From a virus: 64,000 bases of DNA. The position numbers and the translations under genes are program-made. The stretch is from positions 64,001-128,000 of the IMG/VR virus record IMGVR_UViG_3300009082_000017, one strand, 5' to 3'. Every line of letters starts with the position of its first letter. Positions within the stretch are counted from its first letter, which is position 1. The notes under the pieces are model-generated. The model saw only the letters and a list, made by a program, of their open reading frames with translations. It did no database searches and was not told the DNA's origin. This document shows positions 4,817 to 62,597 of the stretch, piece by piece.

Positions 4817-5363
4817 CAGAAAGGGAAAAATAAAATGAGATGTAAACATCCAACCAAAGAAATTTTTAGTAGATGGGTAGATATGAATGGGCGTTCAATC
4901 AACTTCAGCGCCGGTATAGGAGAAGTCAAGAAAGAATATACTTGCCTAGCTTGTGGTAAAGTCGTAAGAAAGCCCAAATCAGAATAACAGTCAACGAAAT
5001 ACCACTTTCATGTGGTTAACAGAAAAGGAGAATAGAATGACAACTTATACAGTTTCGTTTGTAAAAGATGCTTATGTAACAGTAGAAGCAGATAGTGTGG
5101 AAGAGGCGGAAGAATTGGCAACGAAAGAAGTCAATGATCGTGGAGTTGATTGTGAAAGTAAATGGCAATTAGATGAAGTTATTGATGAGTAACACTCAAT
5201 AAAATTTATATTTCATGGTGAAGTAAACCCAAACATCTATTATAAATAGATCAGGGTCTAGAGATTGCGATTTACAATCAGTTTGAATAAATTCAAACAA
5301 AGGAGTGAAATTGCTCCAATAAATTATATCATTCATGGGAAAAATAAAAAGAAAGGAGGTCAA

Positions 5364-6575
5364 TTGATTGTTAATCGCATTGAAAAACATTGCATTAAAA
5401 GGAACACTCCATTATGGAAAGTTATAGATCAAAAATGTTGGGAAGCCAAAAGTTTATATAATTGTGCTAATTATATTATCACACAAGAATTTAAATCTAC
5501 TGGAAAGTGGATTAGATATTATAGTCTTGACAATATGATGCAAAGTACTTTACAATACAAACGATTAGGTTCTCAGGCTGCGCAGAACACATTGGTTTTA
5601 CTTGATAGAGACTGGCGTTCATTTTTTAAAGGAATCAAACAATGGTCTAAAAAGAAAGGAGAAGGATTTTTTGGTAAACCAGAAATGCCTTTCTATAAAA
5701 AGAAAAATGGTAGAAGTGTTTTAATGATAAAAAATATTCAATGTAGAATAGAAGGGAATAAACTTATTTTTTCTTGGCTACCATTAAGAAAATTTAGTGG
5801 TATTCCCACAAAAGCAACAGGAAAATTAATGCAAGTGCGTTTTGTTCCAAAAGGATCATGTTATTATATGGAGATAGTTTATCAAATAAACATTCCTGAC
5901 CAAAAGAAATTTAATAATCGCATTGCAGGAATAGATTTAGGCGTTAATAATTTTGCCACTATTGTAAACAATATCGGTCTTAGACCAATTTTTGTTAAGG
6001 GTAATATTATTAAATCTATGAATCAGTATTATAATAAAGAACGTGCTGAAATATCTAGATCAACTGGAATGGTCTGGAATAATAGAATGAGGAGATTAAC
6101 AGATAAACATTTGAAAAAATTAGATACTTACACCCATACAGTTAGCAAAAGAATTATAGAATATTGTTTAGAAAATAATATAGATACACTTATTGTTGGG
6201 CTTACTAAAGAATGGAAGGATGGAATTAATCTAGGACACGTTAATAATCAAAATTTTGTATGTATTCCTTATGATAAATTTATTCTTCAGTTACAATATA
6301 AATGTGAAAACATTGGAATAAGATTTATTATGAATGAAGAAAACTTTACATCTGGTACAAGTTTTCTTGATAATGAATTACCTATTGAGGAAAACTATAA
6401 TATTAAGCGTAGGATTAAAAGAGGTTTATTTAAATCTAACAATGGCGCAGTTATTAATTCCGATGTTAATGGTGCATATCAAATTGTTAAGAAAGTATAC
6501 CCAAACGCTTTTACAGAAATGTTTAGCAGAGGGATTAGAGGGTGTGATTTACACCCAATTAAGCTAGTAATCTAG
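5364..6575 (+). CDS. tnpB: IS200/IS605-family RNA-guided nuclease TnpB (no TnpA)
   Basis: RuvC-I GIDLG, WKDGINLG..NNQNF, EENFTS, RuvC-III NSDVNGA; probable TTG start at 5364 after AAGGAGG, matching the start of the paralogue at 33399. Confidence 0.9.
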   Translation: MIVNRIEKHCIKRNTPLWKVIDQKCWEAKSLYNCANYIITQEFKSTGKWIRYYSLDNMMQSTLQYKRLGSQAAQNTLVLLDRDWRSFFKGIKQWSKKKGEGFFGKPEMPFYKKKNGRSVLMIKNIQCRIEGNKLIFSWLPLRKFSGIPTKATGKLMQVRFVPKGSCYYMEIVYQINIPDQKKFNNRIAGIDLGVNNFATIVNNIGLRPIFVKGNIIKSMNQYYNKERAEISRSTGMVWNNRMRRLTDKHLKKLDTYTHTVSKRIIEYCLENNIDTLIVGLTKEWKDGINLGHVNNQNFVCIPYDKFILQLQYKCENIGIRFIMNEENFTSGTSFLDNELPIEENYNIKRRIKRGLFKSNNGAVINSDVNGAYQIVKKVYPNAFTEMFSRGIRGCDLHPIKLVI

Positions 6576-6622
6576 ATAATAAAGAAGTGATTTTTTGCTT
6601 CGTAAATTCTTCGTTTTATGAA
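6535..6622 (+). ncRNA. putative omegaRNA / right end of TnpB element 1
   Basis: Hairpins GGGTGT-gattt-ACACCC, CTAG-taat-CTAG and GAAG..CTTC, conserved with compensatory changes in the paralogue at 34558-34644. Confidence 0.6.
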
Positions 6623-6664
6623 AAATAATAAAAAGGAAATAATTATGAAAGCTATATTAACCTT

Positions 6665-11334: not shown

Positions 11335-11410
11335 GCCCTTGTAGCTCAGTTGGATTAAGAGCAATTCTCTTCTAAAGAATAGGTCGCGTGTTCGAGCCAC
11401 GCCAAGGGCG
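11335..11410 (+). tRNA. tRNA-Arg (anticodon TCT)
   Basis: Acceptor stem GCCCTTG/CAAGGGC, D arm TAGCTCAGTTGG, anticodon stem ATTCT/AGAAT with loop CT-TCT-AA, T arm GCGTG-TTCGAGC-CACGC; no encoded CCA. Confidence 0.93.
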
Positions 11411-18876: not shown

Positions 18877-19503
18877 ATGTATGCGAGAATAACATTCAAT
18901 AATGGACAACAATTTACATTAAAGAGAATTCAAGAAATTGAAAAAACTATTGCAGACCAATTAGATAAATCGCAAATGTGCAAAGATCCAGAAGGACGAA
19001 TTACCTCTTATAATACATGGAGGTATTCTGATGATCCCGAAAGCGAAGAAGTAAAATCTGGTAAGAAAAAGTTAGTAACTTTTGTTGATTTATATGAGAT
19101 TGGTTCTTCAAAAGAATATATCGTTGATTTAGATTTATTTTTATCAAAACATCCAGAATTAAAAGTGGGATTACGTGGAACTCCTCCAAATGCAACACAG
19201 GATTATTCTTCTTTGATTCAACAAATTATTGGTATTCAAGATAAATTTGAAAATGCTTTAAAAATGTTTGATCAACAAATTGAGTTTAATCAAAAATGTG
19301 ATGTACATGTTGTCAACTTAGGACTATTAAATATTAATCAATTGGGTTATGCTGTTGATTATTGTACAGAGCAATTGCAAGAAATTGTTAATCAAGGTTG
19401 GAGAATTATTGCTTGCTGTGTTCAACCAGATGGACGTAGACCAGATTATATTCTTGGTCGATATGTCGCTGAAGGTAAAGATTTTGAGTGTGTTAAGTTT
19501 TAA
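18877..19503 (+). CDS. hypothetical phage protein
   Basis: 208 aa; own promoter and SD; bounded by dyads 18797 and 19509. Confidence 0.75.
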   Translation: MYARITFNNGQQFTLKRIQEIEKTIADQLDKSQMCKDPEGRITSYNTWRYSDDPESEEVKSGKKKLVTFVDLYEIGSSKEYIVDLDLFLSKHPELKVGLRGTPPNATQDYSSLIQQIIGIQDKFENALKMFDQQIEFNQKCDVHVVNLGLLNINQLGYAVDYCTEQLQEIVNQGWRIIACCVQPDGRRPDYILGRYVAEGKDFECVKF

Positions 19504-19550
19504 TCCCCATGAAAAACTTATTTCATGTGGTATAAAAGAGAGGATAATGA

Positions 19551-19955
19551 ATGGATGGTTATATAGATCATGTAGCAATTTATGCAAAGCAATTAAATGA
19601 TGAATGGCAAAAAGAATTACAATCAAATTTCAAATTAGAATTAGAAAAGGAGATTTATAAAAAAATGGAATACACACCGATTTTTAGTACTTTATATAGT
19701 TATGGGACATCTACACAACAATTTAAGAAATCAGATTTGGTTCCAACAAAGATTATTTACAATGACAAAACCACTGTTTGCTATTTTAAAGATGGTAGTA
19801 AAGAAATGGTTCATTGCGCTGAAGATGAACAATTTGTAAAAGAAGTTGGTGTGATGAGTTGTATTATGAAGAAGTTATTTGATAGCAGGAATGATTTCAA
19901 ACGGCTAGTCAATTCTGGTTATGTACAACCTCAAAAGGTTGAAAAGAAAGACTAA
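19551..19955 (+). CDS. hypothetical phage protein
   Basis: KIIYNDKTTVCYFKDG...EVGVMSCIMKK, similar to 31650-31898; bounded by dyads. Confidence 0.7.
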   Translation: MDGYIDHVAIYAKQLNDEWQKELQSNFKLELEKEIYKKMEYTPIFSTLYSYGTSTQQFKKSDLVPTKIIYNDKTTVCYFKDGSKEMVHCAEDEQFVKEVGVMSCIMKKLFDSRNDFKRLVNSGYVQPQKVEKKD

Positions 19956-20013
19956 CTACCACATGAAATCTGGCTTTCATGGTGTAGTATAAATATAATA
20001 AAAGGAGAATGAA

Positions 20014-20487
20014 ATGATTGTAGTAGTTGGATTTGTAACACTTATTGGTACAATTGCTTTGTCTTGTGCGGCGTTTGAAGGCTGGAATAAAAAATGGTTA
20101 GGAATATTATCTTTAGTAGTGGGAGTATTGCTCATTGCGGGAGAAATTACTTTAGGAGTTATTTCTTGTGATACATATTCGGAAAATAATATTCCCTTAT
20201 ATGCCGGATATAATAATTCAGAAATTAATGCGCACTTCTTTTTGGGGTCTGGATCAATTAATGACACCGACATGGTATATTTCTGGATAGACCAAAATGG
20301 AGTAAAATCAAAGCATGAAGCAAGAATGAGTGACAGTGTATTTATTGAAGATGGTAAAAATACTTTGGTTTTAAAAGAGACTGATTGTAAAGATAATCTG
20401 CATTGGTTATTTATTTGTGACGAAACATTTGAGTATGAATTTCATGTTCCAGAAAATTCAATTGTTCAAATGTATCAATATCATTAA
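20014..20487 (+). CDS. membrane protein
   Basis: two N-terminal TM helices, FFLGSGSI motif; bounded by dyads. Confidence 0.7.
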   Translation: MIVVVGFVTLIGTIALSCAAFEGWNKKWLGILSLVVGVLLIAGEITLGVISCDTYSENNIPLYAGYNNSEINAHFFLGSGSINDTDMVYFWIDQNGVKSKHEARMSDSVFIEDGKNTLVLKETDCKDNLHWLFICDETFEYEFHVPENSIVQMYQYH

Positions 20488-21388
20488 CTCCATGAAACTG
20501 CGCTTTCATGGGAAGATCAGAAAGGATTGATATGAAATCTACAAAAGATATTTCTCAAAAGTTAAAAGAAGCTGAATTGCTTCTTGAAAAATTTAATTTA
20601 GAATATATGGACAAATATGATTATGGCGACCCAGAATGTGGCGAAGAAGAAGTGTCGCTAAAGAAGGAAATAGAAATTTTAAAATGGGTTCTTGGTAAGT
20701 AATACGGGGTAATGAAAGGACGATTTCATGGGAAAACAAGCAGTAATTTATTTCAAAAATGGAACTAAAGATTGGGTTGATCCGATTGACGATGAATCTA
20801 GAGATATATTTTATGGAGATTCTGTTATAATTGTTACCAATGGAGCGAATAATAAATATGTTTATGATAAGTTGTCAGTTGAAAAGATTGAATTTATTGA
20901 ATTGGATAATATAGAATGACAAAAATGATTTGTACTTGTAAAGAATTTACTGAAAATATGTCGAAATTAAATGACTCGACAATGTATGCGTTCCTTCATG
21001 GACATCAACTTGGAGCAGGGTTTGTATATTTTAGATTTTGTCCATGGTGTAGCAAAAAATTATTTGATGACGATATTAATACTTGGTCTGGTTCTGGCGA
21101 AGATAAACAAGGTGAACTAAATTATTAATTGAGAAAGGAATAAAAATGGTACAAAATTCAAATTTGGGATTAAAGATTGATGGTCTCGAAGGTTGCCCTT
21201 GGTGTGGCAGTCATGTTTTGAAACATTATGAGAACAATCAATTTAAGGCATTACAATGTCAATATTGTTTAGCTATTGGAGGAATATTGCCACATATTCA
21301 TTTTGCAGATAGTGAATATTTAGATTCCAGTAGGTGGCAATTAGTATATTCAAGATGGAATAAAAGATTACAATAAAATAACAATTTC

Positions 21389-32780: not shown

Positions 32781-33038
32781 ACATAAATGAATCTTTTGGT
32801 AAAGAGTTTGATGCTTTATCTGTTGAAAGCAATCAATTAATGACTTACGTGACAGAGATTAGAAATAAAATTAATGATATTCCTCAGATAACAGACTTAA
32901 ATGTTTGTTTAGAATTAGAAAAAGAATATGGTAATCTTGGAGAATATACTAGGCTTTTAGGAGATACGTTTTTCAAATTATCACAAATGTATCATTATGT
33001 TAGACTAGTGAACAAAGTTGCTTTGGACGAACAATAAT

Positions 33039-33362
33039 ATGAAAATAAATAGACAACAAGTTTTAGATAAATATAACGGTCATTGCGCTTATTGCGGATG
33101 TGGAATAACACTAAAGACAATGCAAGTAGATCATAAAAAGTCAAAAGCATATGGTGGAACAGACGAATACCAAAATCTTATGCCATCATGTAGATTGTGT
33201 AATCATTATAAACGAGCCAATAACTTAGAAACGTTTCGAAGATATATTATAGAAATGTATAAAAAATTATCAAAGGTTTATATTTTCAGAGTAGCCGAGA
33301 AATATGGAATGTTTGTATGGAAAGATTGGGATGGAAAGTTTTATTTTGAGAGATTGCCATGA
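33039..33362 (+). CDS. HNH endonuclease
   Basis: CAYCG...VDH...NLMPSCRLCNHYK. Confidence 0.85.
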   Translation: MKINRQQVLDKYNGHCAYCGCGITLKTMQVDHKKSKAYGGTDEYQNLMPSCRLCNHYKRANNLETFRRYIIEMYKKLSKVYIFRVAEKYGMFVWKDWDGKFYFERLP

Positions 33363-33398
33363 AAGTTATTTTATAATGTTGATAAAAGGATAAAATCT

Positions 33399-34598
33399 TT
33401 GATTGTAAATAGAACCGAAAGACATATTATTAAAAACACCGATGCTATGTGGAAAATCATAGATCGAAAATCTTTTTTAGCTAAAAATTTGTATAACGAA
33501 GCCACATATGCCGTTAGACAGGAATTTTTCGCAACGGGAAGTTGGATTAGAGACCACGAACTAGATAAATTGTTGCAAAGTAGTGAAAATTATAAACAAT
33601 TGGGTTCGCAAGCATCACAAAAAACAATTCAACTTGTAGACAAGAACTTTAAATCATATTTTAAGGGAATTAAAGACTGGTCTAAGAAAAGCGGGAAAGG
33701 TTATTTTGGCAAACCATCTCTTCCTAATTACAAAAAGAAAGATGGACGCAGTATTGTAATAATTAAAAATATTCAGTGTAGGATACAAAATGGAGAAATT
33801 TATTTTTCTTGGAAGCCTTTACGAGAATTTACAGGTATTAAAACTAGTATATTAGGAGGATTACAACAAATTCGTTTTGTGCCCATGGGTTCAACTTATG
33901 TAATGGAAATTGTTTATCAAATTAAAGTGCCAAAAGTGAAAAATTTTACTAATAGAATTATGGGAATAGACCTAGGAGTTAATAATCTTGCAACTATTTC
34001 AAACAATATTGGTATTCAACCAATTATTGTTAAGGGTGGGGTTATTAAGTCTATGAATAGATACTATAATAAAGAGAGAAAGAATATTTCAATAGAGACA
34101 GGTATGATTTGGAACAAGAGGATGCGTTTACTAACTGACAAACATATGCGAAAGATGGACAGCTATATGCATTTAGTAAGTCGAAGGATTGTGGAATATT
34201 GCCAGAAATATGACGTGGGTACTTTGGTAATTGGCTTGACAAAAGAATGGAAAGATGGTATAAATATTGGACACGTAAATAATCAAAATTTTGTATCAAT
34301 CCCTCATGAGAAATTGATCCAACAATTGCAATATAAGTGTGAGAATGTTGGAATTAATTGTGTTGTTACAGAGGAAAAGTTTACATCAGGGACAAGTTTT
34401 TTGGATAATGAGCTTCCTACAGAGGATAATTATAATATAAAGAGAAGAGTCAAAAGAGGAGTATTTAAATCTAATGATGGTATAAAATTGAATTCTGATG
34501 TTAATGCGGCATTTCAAATTATTAAAAAAGTATTCCCAGACGCTTTCAAGCAATGGGATAGAGGTTGTGGTTTACAGCCGGTTGCGCTAGAAATCTAG
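33399..34598 (+). CDS. tnpB: IS200/IS605-family TnpB (no TnpA), paralogue of 5364-6575
   Basis: GIDLG, WKDGINIG..NNQNF, EEKFTS, NSDVNAA. Confidence 0.9.
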   Translation: MIVNRTERHIIKNTDAMWKIIDRKSFLAKNLYNEATYAVRQEFFATGSWIRDHELDKLLQSSENYKQLGSQASQKTIQLVDKNFKSYFKGIKDWSKKSGKGYFGKPSLPNYKKKDGRSIVIIKNIQCRIQNGEIYFSWKPLREFTGIKTSILGGLQQIRFVPMGSTYVMEIVYQIKVPKVKNFTNRIMGIDLGVNNLATISNNIGIQPIIVKGGVIKSMNRYYNKERKNISIETGMIWNKRMRLLTDKHMRKMDSYMHLVSRRIVEYCQKYDVGTLVIGLTKEWKDGINIGHVNNQNFVSIPHEKLIQQLQYKCENVGINCVVTEEKFTSGTSFLDNELPTEDNYNIKRRVKRGVFKSNDGIKLNSDVNAAFQIIKKVFPDAFKQWDRGCGLQPVALEI

Positions 34599-34644
34599 AC
34601 AGCAAAGGGATGATTCTATCCCATAAATTGATACTTTTATGAGG
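34558..34644 (+). ncRNA. putative omegaRNA / right end of TnpB element 2
   Basis: GGTTGT-ggttt-ACAGCC, CTAG-aaat-CTAG, GGGAT..ATCCC hairpins parallel those at 6535-6622. Confidence 0.6.
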
Positions 34645-35097
34645 CAAACAATGAACAAAGGTTACATAGCAGATCAACAAATCATGGACAAATACAACCA
34701 CCTCTTATCTTATAAAAAAGATTTAGGCGAAATATCAATACAATATCGTAGAACCAATAATGCGTTTTGTCAAAACCTTATTCATAATAATAAAAATGTT
34801 GGTAGGATTTATATCTTTGGGCTACAAGAGAAAAACAATAATATCCATGGTTATGTTGCAAGAGTTCATTTGAATCCTAAGTTTAGGGTAAATGGTTATG
34901 CAATACAAATGATGTCTGATATTATTAAACATTTTGGAAATTGTGTTTTACATATTACATCTGCTAGTCCAAACAGAATTGAAGGGCTTACGGATGATAA
35001 TAGGGAAATTTATAGAGACAAATTATATAAATTTTATGGTAGGTTTGGGTTTGTGAGAACGAGTGAAGAACATACTGGAATGATAAGGAGAATATGA
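34639..35097 (+). CDS. GNAT-fold acetyltransferase-like protein
   Basis: V.LNPKFRVNGYA and LYKFYGRFGF motifs; start possibly 34651. Confidence 0.6.
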   Translation: MRQTMNKGYIADQQIMDKYNHLLSYKKDLGEISIQYRRTNNAFCQNLIHNNKNVGRIYIFGLQEKNNNIHGYVARVHLNPKFRVNGYAIQMMSDIIKHFGNCVLHITSASPNRIEGLTDDNREIYRDKLYKFYGRFGFVRTSEEHTGMIRRI

Positions 35098-36991: not shown

Positions 36992-37549
36992 TACACCATG
37001 AAACACAGATTTCATGAACAAATAAAGGAGTAAAATGTTAACAAATATTGTAGGAGACATACATAGACATATGGCATATTTCGGAACAGTTCCGAAATTA
37101 GTAATTGGCAAATTTACTTTAGAGACCATAAGAAAAGAATTTGGCAACTTAATTATTGATGCTGATTTAGATAATCAAAGAGGACAAACTATTGCCGGAT
37201 GTGAATTTGAAGAAGCCGATTTTTGGTGGGGATATTATTTGAAAAAGTTTATATCATGAAACTTGTATTTCATTAGGGAAGAAAGGATAATTTATGATAG
37301 ATGCGATTATTGCGATTGTAGTAGGATTGTTGCTTTTATATTTTGGCATATCATCAATAATATTGTTTATAAAAAATGTTAATAAAAATGATGGAATATG
37401 GATTATAGCGAGTGCATTAATTTGTTCCATTGGATTATTTTTATTTGGTGGTGGAATTTTACAAATAATAAAAATTATTTTACCATGAAACTAGAATTTC
37501 ATGGTGTATTACAAATAAGATAATATTAGTATAGTGTAAGGAGATAAAT

Positions 37550-38584
37550 TTGGGAATAAACGTACTTTCATGTTTTGATGGAATTTCTGCCGGTCAATTG
37601 GCATTACAAAGAGCAGGAATTAAAGTAGACAATTATTTTGCATCAGAAATTGACAAATATGCAATTCAAATTACACAGAAGAATTTTCCTAATACTATTC
37701 AACTAGGAAGTATTAATGATTATAAAGACTGGGATTTGCCTAAAATTGATTTGGTTATTGGCGGTAGTCCATGTCAAGGCTTTAGCAATGCAGGGAAAGG
37801 ATTAAATTTTGAAGACCCAAGAAGCAAATTGTTTTTCACATTTTCTGATATTATCAAATATTATAACCCTAAATATTTTTTGTTAGAAAATGTAAAAATG
37901 AAAAAAGAATGGCAAGATGTTATTAGTGAATATATGGGTGTTGGCCCTATTGAAATTAATTCATCTTTAGTTTCTGCTCAAAATAGAAAACGCTTATACT
38001 GGACAAATATTAATTCTGTTGAAGTCCCCTTGGATAAAAATATTTATATTGCAGATATTGCCGAAGAAGATGCAGAGCCTATCATATTACATAATTTATA
38101 TGGTGGTTTTGGAGAATCAAAACCAAGAGTTTTTACAGAAAAATCTCCAACAATAAGAACTGCAAGTGGTAGAGGTCATATTCCAAGCGTTGTTCGTAAA
38201 GATATTTATTGGAAAGACGTTCAGGAAACTGATGCCAAAGATGTTTTTTATTATACTGATAAATCATTTAATTGGATAAATAAGTCAGAAGAACGAAAAG
38301 CAAAATTTAAGATTTATGATAAAAATACTGAAGAAAAAATGCAAATGGTTGAGGCATCACATTATAAATTGTATAGTAATCAACGTTGTTTTGGCATAAG
38401 AGATAAAGGTGGAATTAGGTATATTTCAAATATTGAATGTGAAAGATTACAAACGTTTCCAGATAATTATACGGAAGGCGTATCCAAAACTCAACGATAC
38501 AAAGCAATTGGTAATTCCTGGACGGTAGATGTAATTGCTCATATTTTTTCATATTTGCCTGAAAACTGGAAAGTCACCACATAA
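37550..38584 (+). CDS. C5 cytosine DNA methyltransferase
   Basis: FDGISAG, GGSPCQGFS, LENV, QNRKR, ERLQTFP, IGNSW. Confidence 0.93.
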   Translation: MGINVLSCFDGISAGQLALQRAGIKVDNYFASEIDKYAIQITQKNFPNTIQLGSINDYKDWDLPKIDLVIGGSPCQGFSNAGKGLNFEDPRSKLFFTFSDIIKYYNPKYFLLENVKMKKEWQDVISEYMGVGPIEINSSLVSAQNRKRLYWTNINSVEVPLDKNIYIADIAEEDAEPIILHNLYGGFGESKPRVFTEKSPTIRTASGRGHIPSVVRKDIYWKDVQETDAKDVFYYTDKSFNWINKSEERKAKFKIYDKNTEEKMQMVEASHYKLYSNQRCFGIRDKGGIRYISNIECERLQTFPDNYTEGVSKTQRYKAIGNSWTVDVIAHIFSYLPENWKVTT

Positions 38585-58077: not shown

Positions 58078-59253
58078 TTGAATTTCAAAAGGAAGGAGGA
58101 ATACATTATATATAAAACGATTTTTGTTCCAGTGAAATGCAATAAAAAAGATTTTGAATACATAAAAACTTTAAATAAAATTTCTGCAAATGTGTGGAAT
58201 TATTGTGTTGAAATAGACAAAGAAAATGGTCAAAAATTAACTTTATCGCAATTAGAATTTATGACTAAAAATAAATTTCCATTACATGCAAAAGGAATAC
58301 ATCATATTGTTTTTAAATATTTGAATGCAAGGAAGTCAATGTGGGAAGTTATTAAAAAGAATAAAGACAATGGAAATAAAATAACCTTACCATATAGATT
58401 AAAAGAATATATGCCCACTGGTTGGGATTCACAGGCAATACATCCAGAATATGACAATAATAAAATTAGGCTTACTTGCATTTTGGGTAGAGGACAAATT
58501 GTTTGCAAAGTTAAATCAATACCCAACAATATCGCAGAGATTGAATTGGTCTATAAAGACGAATATTATTTATCTATCAAATATAAAGAAGAAAATGATA
58601 CAAATTTAATTCAATCGGATAATATTGCTAGTATTGACCTTGGAGAAATTCATGCAATTACAAGCATTGACAAATTTGGGAATTGTGTTATAGTTACTAA
58701 TAGAAAGATTCGTAGTTTAATTAGATTAAAAGATAAAAGACAAGGCGAATTACAATCTTTAAGATCAAAATGCGTCAAAGGAAGCAAACAATCTAAAAAA
58801 TATACAAAAGCAATTTATGATATTAAATATGAGTTTGATAACAAAATTTTGGATGCGCTTCACAAACAAACAAATTTATACGTCAAATGGTGTAGAAGTC
58901 ATAAAATTTCGAAAGTTTATTATGGAGATTTAGATACCACTACTAGAAACAGCAAAGGCAAGAAAAGTCAAAAAATAAATCATAAATTAAGTATGTGGAG
59001 ATTTGGTATATTAATTAAACAACTTCAATATAAACTTTTTCAATATGGTATTGTAATGGAAGAAATAAGTGAAGCATATACAAGCCAAACTTGCCCAAAT
59101 TGTGGCAATAGAAAAAAGACGGGAAGTAGAAACTATTCTTGTAAGTGTGGATACATTCAACACAGAGATATTGTAGGTGCAATAAATATATTGAATTTTA
59201 ATACAGATACTGATTTAAAAATGTATAAAAACAAGGTATATCTACAAATCTAG
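58078..59253 (+). CDS. tnpB: TnpB family RNA-guided nuclease with C-terminal zinc ribbon (no transposase)
   Basis: SIDLG, YGDL, EAYTSQTCPNCG, CKCG, HRDIVGAINI; start uncertain (AAGGAGG near 58093 is followed by ATT/ATA). Confidence 0.88.
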   Translation: MNFKRKEEYIIYKTIFVPVKCNKKDFEYIKTLNKISANVWNYCVEIDKENGQKLTLSQLEFMTKNKFPLHAKGIHHIVFKYLNARKSMWEVIKKNKDNGNKITLPYRLKEYMPTGWDSQAIHPEYDNNKIRLTCILGRGQIVCKVKSIPNNIAEIELVYKDEYYLSIKYKEENDTNLIQSDNIASIDLGEIHAITSIDKFGNCVIVTNRKIRSLIRLKDKRQGELQSLRSKCVKGSKQSKKYTKAIYDIKYEFDNKILDALHKQTNLYVKWCRSHKISKVYYGDLDTTTRNSKGKKSQKINHKLSMWRFGILIKQLQYKLFQYGIVMEEISEAYTSQTCPNCGNRKKTGSRNYSCKCGYIQHRDIVGAINILNFNTDTDLKMYKNKVYLQI

Positions 59254-61646: not shown

Positions 61647-62597
61647 ATGGTTACTGAAAAAAATAAAAAAGAACTCAAAATAATTGAGAAAAAAGAATTA
61701 GATAAATTCTTGCATCGCAAGTCTATTAAGTCTGAGCATACTAGGAAGTCATACAAAAATTGCATTGGACAATTGTTTGATCATTATAATATTGAAACGA
61801 TAGAAGATTATCAAAAACTCACATTGTCTAATTTCGAAGATTATCTTAATTCTTTACCAATCAAAGATGCCTCGTATAATCAACACCTTCGCTCTCTAAA
61901 GGTTTTCTCGTCTTGGTTAAAGAAGCATGATAAAATTCAAGAAGATATCCTCCAACCAATTAAATTGACTAAGGTAAACGCAGTTACTGGCGATAAAGAA
62001 TATGATAAGAAAAGACGAGCGAAAGAAAAGTTATATCTTACAGATAATGAAATTCAAAAAATGATTGCTGTGTCAAAAAATATAAATTCTAAATTAGCTA
62101 TTGCCCTTATGGGGTATATGGGACTTCGCAGAGAAGAACTTGTTGGTTTGACTATCACAGATGTTCATGGAGATTTCTTAGGGATTCCAGGGAAAGGCGG
62201 TACATACGAAGAAAGAAAAATGCCTCCTGCTGTAAAGTTTTTGGTAAATGAATATTTGAAAACCAGAAATAATAATTCTGAATATCTTATCGTTTCAAAA
62301 GTTGGGCAACATCAAATTACAAATACCAATTCTATTTATGAAAGGATCAAATCTGCCGGAAGAAAAGCTGGAATTGATGCCGAAAAAATGAAATTAGTTA
62401 CCCCACATACAATGAGACGAAGTACTGCTTGTAATGCTGTACTTAGGGGTGTTCCAAGTACTGTAGTCAAAGAGATGCTTAGGCATCAACGACAAGTTAC
62501 AACTGATATCTATTTGGAAGCGTTAAAAGGATCTGAGGCAGTTGATGCAGCTTTTGATTCACAACCAATGCCCGATATGTCAGTTTTGATGGTATAG
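61647..62597 (+). CDS. XerC/XerD-like tyrosine recombinase
   Basis: SAM-like N-domain (SEHTRKSY...LRSLKVFSSWL); catalytic GLRREE (R), GKGG (K), HTMRR (HxxR), LRH, TDIY (Y); 316 aa, no arm-binding domain. Confidence 0.93.
   Translation: MVTEKNKKELKIIEKKELDKFLHRKSIKSEHTRKSYKNCIGQLFDHYNIETIEDYQKLTLSNFEDYLNSLPIKDASYNQHLRSLKVFSSWLKKHDKIQEDILQPIKLTKVNAVTGDKEYDKKRRAKEKLYLTDNEIQKMIAVSKNINSKLAIALMGYMGLRREELVGLTITDVHGDFLGIPGKGGTYEERKMPPAVKFLVNEYLKTRNNNSEYLIVSKVGQHQITNTNSIYERIKSAGRKAGIDAEKMKLVTPHTMRRSTACNAVLRGVPSTVVKEMLRHQRQVTTDIYLEALKGSEAVDAAFDSQPMPDMSVLMV

What the first reader, a model, noticed from the sequence alone, without database searches (positions are those of the whole stretch)
5316..6622. 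Transposase-less TnpB bracketed by dyads, with the RNA 3' end running into the site
Seen: tnpB-1 has a dyad just upstream of its SD (5319) and a variant dyad TTC-GTAAAT-tcttcg-TTTTAT-GAA (6602) abutting its last 3' hairpin. The paralogue at 33399 has the same layout: a degenerate site at 33359 and CCC-ATAAAT-tgatac-TTTTAT-GAGG at 34623. Both right sites share RTAAAT and TTTTATGA. No tnpA is present. Established: the TnpB guide is the sequence just beyond the element's right end, and TnpB cuts empty alleles. Inference: these TnpBs may move as recombinase cassettes and take a guide that includes the unique spacer, giving RNA-guided homing into specific slots or attack on competing phages.
Basis: partly seen in the sequence, partly recalled or inferred. 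Interest (0 to 1): 0.8.

Follow-up and report, generated by a model that had tools for sequence, protein, structure and literature searches.

The report
Phage TnpB genes parked in palindromes
Two transposase-less RNA-guided nuclease genes (TnpB) in a 160-kb phage each end exactly inside one of the phage's palindromic intergenic sites, so the site's unique 6-base spacer would start the guide RNA; this fits a selfish "homing" nuclease aimed at the same slot in rival phages, but no activity was measured.

Summary
tnpB-1 (5364-6575) and tnpB-2 (33399-34598) are intact TnpB genes, 63% identical. The whole 160-kb phage has no Y1 or serine TnpA.

The right-hand "dyad" is real and conserved. A covarying four-helix RNA module ends in a hexamer (GTAAAT 6602, ATAAAT 34623). 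A variable 6-nt spacer and then TTTYAT follow it directly. The same layout holds in 36 of 41 independent contexts across phage and Firmicute relatives (background 3%).

Sister phages hold tnpB-less alleles of relatives' sites. There the same spacer and right arm follow an ordinary left arm. So the element ends at the hexamer, and spacer plus right arm are target DNA, the presumptive guide.

The left "dyad" at 5319 is not a left end. It closes a second, tnpB-less copy of the RNA module (5215-5324) with compensatory stem changes. No conserved left end exists.

Best reading: free-standing, IS607-related TnpB/omegaRNA units lodged in palindromic sites, acting as RNA-guided homing or exclusion nucleases. 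Movement by a recombinase is not shown. The TAM, RNA ends and empty alleles of these two copies remain unknown. I rate it a new variant of a known kind. Other first-stage notes had flagged this stretch; none was followed up.

The parts
5199..5216 (+). Generic intergenic dyad (1 mismatch) that precedes the orphan RNA module
5215..5324 (+). Orphan, tnpB-less copy of the tnpB 3' RNA (omegaRNA-like) module. It has the four helices, with two compensatory double changes in helix P2 (GATTG/CAATC against GGGTG/CACCC), and ends in the hexamer ATAAAT (5319-5324).
   Evidence: blastn 73-77% to 3' ends of L004/L005/L011; nhmmer E 3.6e-14, model positions 23-143; fold z -3.4; the only orphan among 168 loci
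5325..5344 (+). Spacer TATATC, right arm ATTCAT and following bases: presumptive guide of the orphan module
   Evidence: position relative to the hexamer; inference
5364..6575 (+). tnpB-1 CDS (TTG start, SD GGAGG at 5355-5359). Conserved D, E and D columns (D190, E325, D366 in the numbering of window:5367-6575, taken by homology as the RuvC triad) are present. There are no zinc-finger cysteines.
6466..6607 (+). omegaRNA-like module of tnpB-1. It overlaps the last ~110 nt of the ORF and ends in a variable-stem hairpin (6585-6601) plus the hexamer GTAAAT (6602-6607).
   Evidence: nhmmer E 2.9e-27; covariation in 11 of 16 predicted pairs; fold
6608..6627 (+). Spacer TCTTCG (6608-6613), right arm TTTTAT (6614-6619) and following bases: presumptive guide of tnpB-1. 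SD and start of the next gene follow.
   Evidence: boundary by analogy
33018..33362 (+). HNH endonuclease gene directly upstream of tnpB-2. Its TGA stop lies in the left arm CCATGAAA (33359-33366).
33359..33380 (+). Degenerate dyad (good left arm, poor right arm) 19 nt upstream of the tnpB-2 start. It is a possible left junction of a simple insertion after the left arm.
   Evidence: inference
33399..34598 (+). tnpB-2 CDS (399 aa, TTG start)
34501..34628 (+). omegaRNA-like module of tnpB-2, ending in hairpin GGGAT..ATCCC and the hexamer ATAAAT (34623-34628)
   Evidence: nhmmer E 5.8e-29
34629..34648 (+). Spacer TGATAC, right arm TTTTAT and following bases: presumptive guide of tnpB-2. It overlaps the SD and start of the GNAT-like gene.
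37483..37530 (+). Uninterrupted dyad that is the tnpB-less counterpart of the right flank of the tnpB in relative L009. The spacer is 5/6 identical, and the right arm and downstream methylase gene are homologous.
58078..59253 (+). Third, distantly related tnpB (has CxxC zinc finger) with no dyad at its 3' end. It serves as a contrast case.
61647..62597 (+). Tyrosine recombinase (Phage_integrase family). It is relevant only to the recombinase-cassette rival.

Best explanation
tnpB-1 and tnpB-2 are intact, free-standing members of a large phage-resident branch of the IS607-related TnpB family. This branch has lost its transposase and its left end.

Each gene carries a conserved four-helix RNA module (the omegaRNA scaffold) in its last ~100 nt and the 30-45 nt after the stop. 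The module stops at a hexamer (ATGAAT, ATAAAT or GTAAAT). That hexamer sits where the left arm of one of the phage's palindromic intergenic sites (ATGAAA-N6-TTTCAT) would be. The site's spacer and right arm are neighbouring target DNA and would be the first 12 nt of the guide. All 94 spacers in this genome differ, so each guide is an address for one slot.

The most likely activity is RNA-guided cutting of the uninterrupted version of that slot in a co-infecting relative. Recombinational repair would then copy tnpB in, or simply disadvantage the rival. This is the behaviour of the free-standing homing endonuclease genes of T4-type phages, but RNA-guided.

The module at 5215-5324 is a second guide RNA gene without its own nuclease.

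Shown: gene identity, absence of TnpA, RNA-structure covariation, the fixed register with the site, the element boundary, and empty alleles in relatives. Inferred: transcription, guide use, TAM, cleavage and homing.
For: Gene identity and absence of a transposase:
- Both ORFs are in the TnpB family.
- D, E and D columns are invariant in 32 homologues, and the first aligns with the ISDra2-type GxDLG motif.
- The genome has no Y1 or serine TnpA. Five other tnpB-bearing phage records have none either.
- Bacterial relatives at 43-45% identity sit behind a serine recombinase, as in IS607.

RNA module:
- 11 of 16 predicted pairs show double compensatory changes.
- The three window copies fold alike.
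- The orphan copy keeps the helices through compensatory changes without any coding constraint.

Fixed register with the site:
- TTT lies at +7 to +9 after the hexamer in 36 of 41 non-redundant contexts, and in 15 of 21 HMM-anchored contexts. Background is 3.3%.
- This holds in distant phages, where such dyads are about 8 times rarer than here.
- Spacer composition after the hexamer matches that of generic dyad spacers.

Element boundary:
- Elements 93-95% identical diverge right after the hexamer (L060/L068, L037/L039).
- Reciprocal empty and occupied alleles exist between the phages of L041 and L050, 28/28 and 25-28/28 identical from the spacer onward. Four further empty sites were found, one of them in this window at 37483.

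Context:
- All loci inspected are phage-like and co-oriented with their neighbours. There are at least 471 relatives in IMG/VR.

Precedents in papers:
- In an IS607-family element the right end resembles the TAM, differing at one base (PMC10690162).
- Homing into co-infecting phages is discussed as theoretically possible (PMC13565253).
Against:
- No empty allele of tnpB-1 or tnpB-2 themselves was found.
- The six bases before the spacer in empty alleles are of the same kind as the element's own hexamer, and at L089:740 they are identical over 7 nt. I therefore cannot name a TAM that would spare the phage's own locus. The T-for-A difference (11/11 against 9/119, p 6e-11) holds only in this phage group.
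- Several close pairs share spacer and right arm and diverge only afterwards (L041/L048, L018/L021, L026/L029, L005/L012). A pure 'flank' reading does not predict this.
- How units reach new dyads without a transposase is unexplained.
- Synonymous-site conservation over the RNA module is only slightly raised (0.65 against 0.57).
- These TnpBs lack the zinc-finger cysteines, so nuclease competence is assumed, not known.
Confidence: 0.55

Rival explanations
1. Recombinase cassettes. The dyads would be dif/lox-like core sites for the phage's tyrosine recombinases. Genes, tnpB included, would move as units cut at the left-arm/spacer boundary. The tnpB guide would then be rewritten whenever the downstream cassette changes.
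For: - Site geometry is 9-11-bp inverted arms around a fixed 6-bp spacer.
- Two Phage_integrase genes are in the genome, and 4 of 5 other tnpB-bearing records have one or more.
- Homology blocks between this phage and relatives start and stop at dyads.
- The tnpB junction lies exactly at the arm/spacer boundary, where such enzymes cut.
- In 8 of 11 close relatives a complete dyad lies just upstream of tnpB, so a circularised unit would rebuild one dyad.
Against: - No test of recombinase and site was possible.
- Tyrosine recombinases are common in phages, so their presence carries little weight.
- All 94 spacers differ, which blocks ordinary two-strand exchange between sites.
- Left junctions of tnpB units are ragged or lie inside genes.
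- In distant phages dyads are rare, yet tnpB still sits on one. That ties the site to tnpB rather than to a genome-wide cassette system.
- Short conserved intergenic sequences can create mosaic boundaries by ordinary homologous recombination.
Confidence: 0.15
2. Ordinary insertion-sequence relics. IS607/IS605-type elements once inserted next to a TGAA-type target by a transposase supplied in trans. They survive only in tolerated intergenic palindromes and are now inert passengers.
For: - The right end has an IS-type subterminal hairpin with flanking short motifs.
- Bacterial relatives are true IS607-type elements with sharp ends.
- IS elements that target extragenic palindromes are known (my own knowledge, not checked here).
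- The left ends are lost.
Against: - The ORFs are intact at 63-77% identity with invariant catalytic columns.
- The RNA helices are kept by compensatory change, including in the orphan.
- At least 471 phage copies exist with the same anatomy.
- No TnpA was found in any of six phage records searched.
Confidence: 0.12
3. Domesticated function within the phage. The RNA-protein complex would bind or cut a site for the phage's own benefit, for example control of the gene downstream of the dyad, or attack on host or satellite DNA, rather than homing.
For: - The presumptive guide overlaps the SD and start region of the next gene.
- Phage-encoded TnpB relatives that act as RNA-guided repressors are described (abstracts listed).
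- The orphan module supplies an extra guide.
Against: - The catalytic D, E and D columns are conserved, unlike nuclease-dead repressors.
- The guide matches only its own flank in this genome.
- Presence/absence polymorphism among sister phages looks like a selfish element.
Confidence: 0.1

Closest known systems
IS607-family TnpB with omegaRNA (e.g. the Clostridium botulinum IStron studied in PMC10690162)
   Same: - TnpB with a guide RNA encoded across the 3' end of the gene and the right end.
- The guide is the DNA just beyond the right end.
- The right-end terminus resembles the target-adjacent motif (TAM).
- Bacterial homologues of the window's TnpB at 43-45% identity sit behind a serine recombinase.
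   Different: - No serine TnpA, no left end and no intron.
- An AT-rich terminal hexamer instead of a G-rich one.
- Resident in lytic-looking phage genomes.
- The right end is always lodged in a palindromic site with a fixed 6-nt spacer.
IS1341-type (tnpB-only) members of IS200/IS605
   Same: tnpB without tnpA, and a subterminal hairpin at the right end.
   Different: IS1341-type elements keep both ends and are thought to be mobilised in trans. Here no left end is conserved and the units begin at the ribosome-binding site.
Free-standing homing endonuclease genes of T4-type phages (Seg, Mob), as summarised in PMC13565253
   Same: - An intergenic nuclease gene co-oriented with its neighbours.
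- Present or absent at the same slot in related phages.
- No discrete element boundaries on at least one side.
- An HNH gene even sits next to tnpB-2.
   Different: Target recognition would be by RNA. The target is a repeated palindromic site made unique by its spacer.
Insertion sequences that target extragenic palindromes
   Same: A mobile element found specifically inside short intergenic palindromic repeats.
   Different: Those are DDE-type IS elements in bacterial chromosomes. Here the passenger is an RNA-guided nuclease whose guide is set by the palindrome it occupies.
TldR, phage-encoded nuclease-dead TnpB-like RNA-guided repressors (abstracts)
   Same: Phage-borne TnpB relatives with a fixed guide and no transposase.
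   Different: The window's proteins keep the catalytic D, E and D columns.

Membership tests
TnpB (RNA-guided nuclease of IS200/IS605/IS607) | OrfB_IS605 (RuvC-containing) domain plus TNB domain | tested here: met
   Pfam matches over the curated cut-offs for both proteins. tnpB-3 passes for the TNB domain only.
TnpB (RNA-guided nuclease of IS200/IS605/IS607) | RuvC catalytic D, E, D | tested here: met
   D190, E325 and D366 are invariant in 32 homologues. The GIDLG motif aligns with the first catalytic Asp region of solved TnpB-type chains. Assigning them as catalytic is by homology.
TnpB (RNA-guided nuclease of IS200/IS605/IS607) | CCCC zinc finger in the TNB domain (usual, not universal) | tested here: not met
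   The region between the E and the last D has no cysteines in tnpB-1 or tnpB-2. tnpB-3 has them.
TnpB (RNA-guided nuclease of IS200/IS605/IS607) | omegaRNA: structured RNA overlapping the 3' end of the gene, followed by the guide | tested here: inconclusive
   A conserved, covarying structure is present. No Rfam family matches.
IS200/IS605 element | Y1 (HUH) TnpA, in cis or elsewhere in the genome | tested here: not met
   PF01797 is absent from the 160-kb genome and from five other tnpB-bearing phage records.
IS200/IS605 element | Left end with hairpin, preceded by the TAM | tested here: not met
   Homology between copies starts at the SD or start codon. Upstream sequences are unrelated.
IS607 element | Serine recombinase TnpA upstream of tnpB | tested here: not met
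   PF00239 is absent from the phage and from five other records. It is present in the bacterial relative L117.
Free-standing homing endonuclease gene | Presence/absence at one slot among related genomes, with the target intact in the empty allele | tested here: inconclusive
   Met for homologous elements (L041/L050 reciprocal; L018, L070, L089, L009). Not found for tnpB-1 or tnpB-2 themselves.
Free-standing homing endonuclease gene | Cleavage of the empty allele and biased inheritance | not testable with these tools
   Needs cleavage and co-infection assays.
Site-specific recombinase cassette system (integron- or Xer-like) | Recombinase gene plus repeated core sites with inverted arms and a fixed spacer | tested here: met
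   Two Phage_integrase genes and 94 dyads with a 6-nt spacer. Their co-presence does not show that they work together.
Site-specific recombinase cassette system (integron- or Xer-like) | Cassette junctions at one fixed position of the site on both sides; circular intermediates | tested here: inconclusive
   The right junction is fixed at the arm/spacer boundary. Left junctions are ragged. Circular forms could not be sought.

The most novel reading that the evidence does not exclude
The palindromic sites and this TnpB lineage form one system. Each TnpB unit carries a right-arm-like start and a left-arm-like end, so every insertion into a dyad creates a second dyad. The phage's ~94 uniquely addressed dyads would then be landing pads and footprints of this traffic. 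TnpB, possibly together with the phage's tyrosine recombinase, would drive RNA-addressed exchange of whole gene cassettes between co-infecting phages. The guide would be rewritten automatically by whatever cassette lies downstream.
Probability: 0.15. Interest if true: 0.9.

Novelty: new variant of a known kind. Interest (0 to 1): 0.62.

Why it matters
TnpB is the ancestor of Cas12, and its known natural role is keeping bacterial transposons from being lost. This lineage of at least several hundred phage copies has shed both transposase and left end, yet keeps nuclease residues and guide RNA structure. It always sits in one register inside a palindromic intergenic site.

If these units home between phages, they would be the RNA-guided counterpart of the classic phage homing endonucleases. 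They would also be a ready-made natural experiment in how a fixed-guide nuclease picks addresses.

The reciprocal empty and occupied alleles give concrete target/guide pairs to test. The stand-alone guide module next to tnpB-1 shows a possible first step from one fixed guide towards several. The CRISPR-like mini-arrays seen beside related tnpB genes point the same way.

Tried and rejected
- **Public phage records.** The two loci gave no nucleotide match. Flanking proteins of both copies gave no relatives in IMG/VR.
- **Empty alleles of these copies.** Exact searches for the presumptive guides found nothing for copy 2 in viral contigs. They found 17 unrelated chance hits in metagenomes and one chance hit in a giant-virus contig for copy 1.
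- **Known RNA families.** Rfam has no family for the module.
- **Withdrawn claim: distant phages lack dyads.** I first concluded this from a search with the window's own consensus. Spacing-controlled counts show they do have them, at about one eighth of the density, with variant arms.
- **Withdrawn claim: T-for-A spares the element's own locus.** This holds in the window's phage group. Empty alleles of distant groups carry T as well.
- **Rejected: the right arm is part of the element.** One fold suggested it closes a long-range helix. I rejected this because empty alleles already contain the spacer and right arm.
- **Rejected: the adjacency is incidental.** It is true that about 40% of junctions here have a dyad. 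But the association holds at 88% where dyads are rare.
- **Synonymous-site conservation.** The signal over the RNA module was weak.
- **L009 left flank.** It looked similar to the window over 14 nt, but the upstream proteins are unrelated.
Full report
**Setting**

The window is bases 64001-128000 of a 160,042-bp IMG/VR phage record with 31.8% G+C, rated complete. Almost all genes are on the + strand, in arrays of small ORFs.

A palindromic motif, CCC(C/A)ATGAAA-N6-TTTCAT(G/T)GG, is strongly over-represented:
- It has 54 matches at <=1 mismatch in the window against 2 expected, and 94 in the genome.
- 51 of the 54 lie at gene junctions, either 5-8 nt after a stop codon or with the TGA stop inside the left arm.
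- 39% of all junctions carry one, and 48% in the first 43 kb.
- All 94 spacers are different. Their first base is almost never A and their last rarely T.
- Matches with two mismatches are no more frequent than in shuffled sequence.

**The observation**

- ORFs 5364-6575 and 33399-34598 pass the Pfam cut-offs for OrfB_IS605 and the Cas12f1-like TNB domain. They are 63% identical.
- The whole genome has no Y1 transposase and no serine recombinase. It does have two tyrosine recombinases, one of them at 61647-62597.

Against the generic consensus, the TnpB-linked sites are poor matches, with 3-4 of 12 arm positions differing. On this window alone they are not significant, and their reality rests on comparison with relatives.

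**Relatives**

The protein has thousands of homologues. Those at 57-77% identity lie on phage-like contigs, co-oriented with neighbouring small genes. A profile scan found at least 471 relatives in IMG/VR, of which 80 loci were kept. It found 163 in bacterial and MAG contigs, mostly Clostridia and Bacilli.

Loci L004-L012 come from mosaic relatives of the window's phage. They share genes at 80-92% identity and the same dyads at about 1 per kb.

**The right end**

In all ten close relatives and most distant ones, the 3' end of tnpB has the same build. It consists of:
- a helix enclosing a small hairpin;
- the helix GGGTG..CACCC inside the ORF;
- a hairpin across the stop codon;
- a short A-rich linker;
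- a hairpin whose stem sequence differs from copy to copy;
- and then, without a gap, a hexamer (ATGAAT, ATAAAT, ATAGAA and a few variants), six variable bases, and TTT(C/T)A(T/A).

RNAalifold on 24 copies predicts 16 pairs, of which 11 show double compensatory changes. The three window copies fold alike. No Rfam family matches.

Using anchors chosen by the hairpin alone, TTT follows at +7 to +9 in 36 of 41 non-redundant contexts. Using anchors from an HMM truncated at the hexamer, the figure is 15 of 21. The background frequency of TTT is 3.3%. Base composition at the first and last spacer positions matches that of the generic dyads.

I first thought the distant phages had no dyads, and that was wrong. 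With spacing controls, TGAAA-N6-TTTCA occurs 26 times in 467 kb, against 0-8 for other spacings. So dyads exist there at about one eighth of the window's density, often with variant arms. Even so, a few percent of junctions against 88% for tnpB shows that the site is tied to tnpB. It is not merely the generic junction signal.

A sister subclade, including true IS607-type bacterial elements with a serine recombinase, has a different right end (…ATAACCT or …ATAACGT). Its boundaries are sharp and carry no dyad. tnpB-3 has no dyad either.

**Where the element ends**

Two kinds of evidence place the boundary between the hexamer and the spacer.

The first is divergence between near-identical copies.
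- Elements 93-95% identical over their last 200 nt have unrelated spacers and flanks: L060/L068 share 1 of 6 spacer bases, and L037/L039 also diverge there.
- Some pairs instead share spacer and right arm and diverge only afterwards: L041/L048, L018/L021, L026/L029 and L005/L012. I cannot fully explain these. Exchange of the downstream gene at the dyad would produce this pattern.

The second is tnpB-less alleles in sister phages.
- The phage of L050 has an ordinary left arm followed by exactly the spacer, right arm and gene start that follow tnpB in L041 (28/28 identical).
- The phages of L041, L042, L046 and L048 hold the tnpB-less version of L050's site (25-28/28).
- Further empty sites exist for the flanks of L018/L021, L070 and L089.
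- This window's dyad at 37483 is the empty counterpart of L009's site.

So spacer and right arm are target DNA. In a TnpB system, the DNA just beyond the right end is what the guide is copied from (established knowledge; PMC10690162). For tnpB-1 and tnpB-2 themselves no empty allele was found.

**The left side**

There is no conserved left end.
- Homology between copies begins at the ribosome-binding site or the first codons.
- Upstream sequences are unrelated.
- In L050 the unit replaces most of a gene that is whole in L041.

A complete generic dyad lies 10-30 nt upstream of the start in 8 of 11 close copies. That is only modestly more than the junction average.

For tnpB-2, the good left arm at 33359 holds the HNH gene's stop. 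This is consistent with the model but untested.

**The dyad at 5319**

Region 5215-5345 is homologous to the 3' ends of L004, L005 and L011 (73-77% identity). The module profile finds it at E 3.6e-14 across positions 23-143, and it is the only extra copy in the genome. It is also the only orphan among 168 loci examined.

It has all four helices. In the helix that is coding in tnpB it carries two double compensatory substitutions. It folds far better than shuffles (z -3.4). It ends in ATAAAT followed by a spacer and a right arm.

The left dyad is therefore the terminus of a tnpB-less guide-RNA-like module lying directly in front of tnpB-1. It is not an end of the tnpB-1 unit. Kept base-pairing without coding constraint argues that this module is used.

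**Mechanism**

I commit to free-standing TnpB/omegaRNA units that act as RNA-guided homing or exclusion nucleases between co-infecting phages. The guide would be addressed by the unique spacer of the dyad they occupy. The following steps are inference: transcription through the site, guide use, TAM, cleavage and repair-mediated copying.

The weakest point is self-avoidance. In this phage group the hexamer always ends in T, where generic arms have A (11/11 against 9/119, p 6e-11). That would resemble the one-base difference between right end and TAM in the IS607-family element of PMC10690162. But empty alleles in distant groups also carry T, and once the same 7 bases.

How units reach new dyads without a transposase is also open. 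The options are:
- past transposition next to a TGAA-type motif;
- recombination at the conserved arms;
That idea fits the site geometry and the junction position. It has no direct support, and the ragged left junctions and all-different spacers count against it.

**Literature**

Full-text searches found the homing role of TnpB in bacteria, the IS607 work and a 2026 review. The review treats homing into co-infecting phages as theoretically possible. I found no description of phage TnpBs lodged in palindromic sites or of orphan guide modules. A cyanophage paper only speculates on function.

**Verdict**

The guide-includes-the-spacer inference is supported by boundary mapping. Recombinase movement is not shown. 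I rate the finding a new variant of a known kind, of moderate to high interest.

Noticed in passing
L039:2315-2481, L082:2328-2496, L069:2274-2499, L070:2397-2484 (also L037, L038, L040, L047, L081): A CRISPR-like mini-array sits directly upstream of tnpB in one subclade of the same family. It has 2-4 copies of a 36-nt repeat starting GTTTTAGAGCTATG (as in type II-A repeats), spaced 65-67 nt apart, with spacers that differ between phages. The last, degenerate repeat overlaps the tnpB start. These genes still carry the 3' RNA module.
   Followed up: partly
window 58078-59253: A third tnpB, distantly related and with CxxC zinc-finger motifs, is followed by about 150 nt of non-coding sequence and a terminator-like hairpin. 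It has no dyad on either side.
   Followed up: partly
window 5367-6575 and 33399-34598 (protein positions about 326-366): The TNB domain of this TnpB branch has no cysteines where TnpB usually has a CCCC zinc finger. The replacement segment is itself highly conserved.
   Followed up: no
window 19494-21129, 36996-37273, 37483-38010 against L005, L007, L009, L012: Blocks of homology with related phages begin and end at dyads, and the genes between two conserved dyads can be unrelated. The dyads therefore mark mosaic boundaries for ordinary genes too.
   Followed up: partly
whole phage genome, 94 dyads: All 94 spacers are different. The first spacer base is A in only 2 of 94 and the last is T in only 6 of 94, while T...A is favoured. 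The symmetric half-site is therefore really CCCCATGAAAT.
   Followed up: partly
window 33018-33362: An HNH endonuclease gene lies immediately upstream of tnpB-2, so two putative selfish nuclease genes sit side by side.
   Followed up: no
window 8747, 15177, 18797, 26685; L007:6367; L005:2424; L012:4443: A few dyads without tnpB have the T-ending left arm typical of tnpB right ends. Some are preceded by AAAG...CCCC, faintly like a decayed terminal hairpin. They may be footprints of lost units.
   Followed up: no
window 11335-11410: A tRNA gene was the only Rfam match in the window.
   Followed up: no
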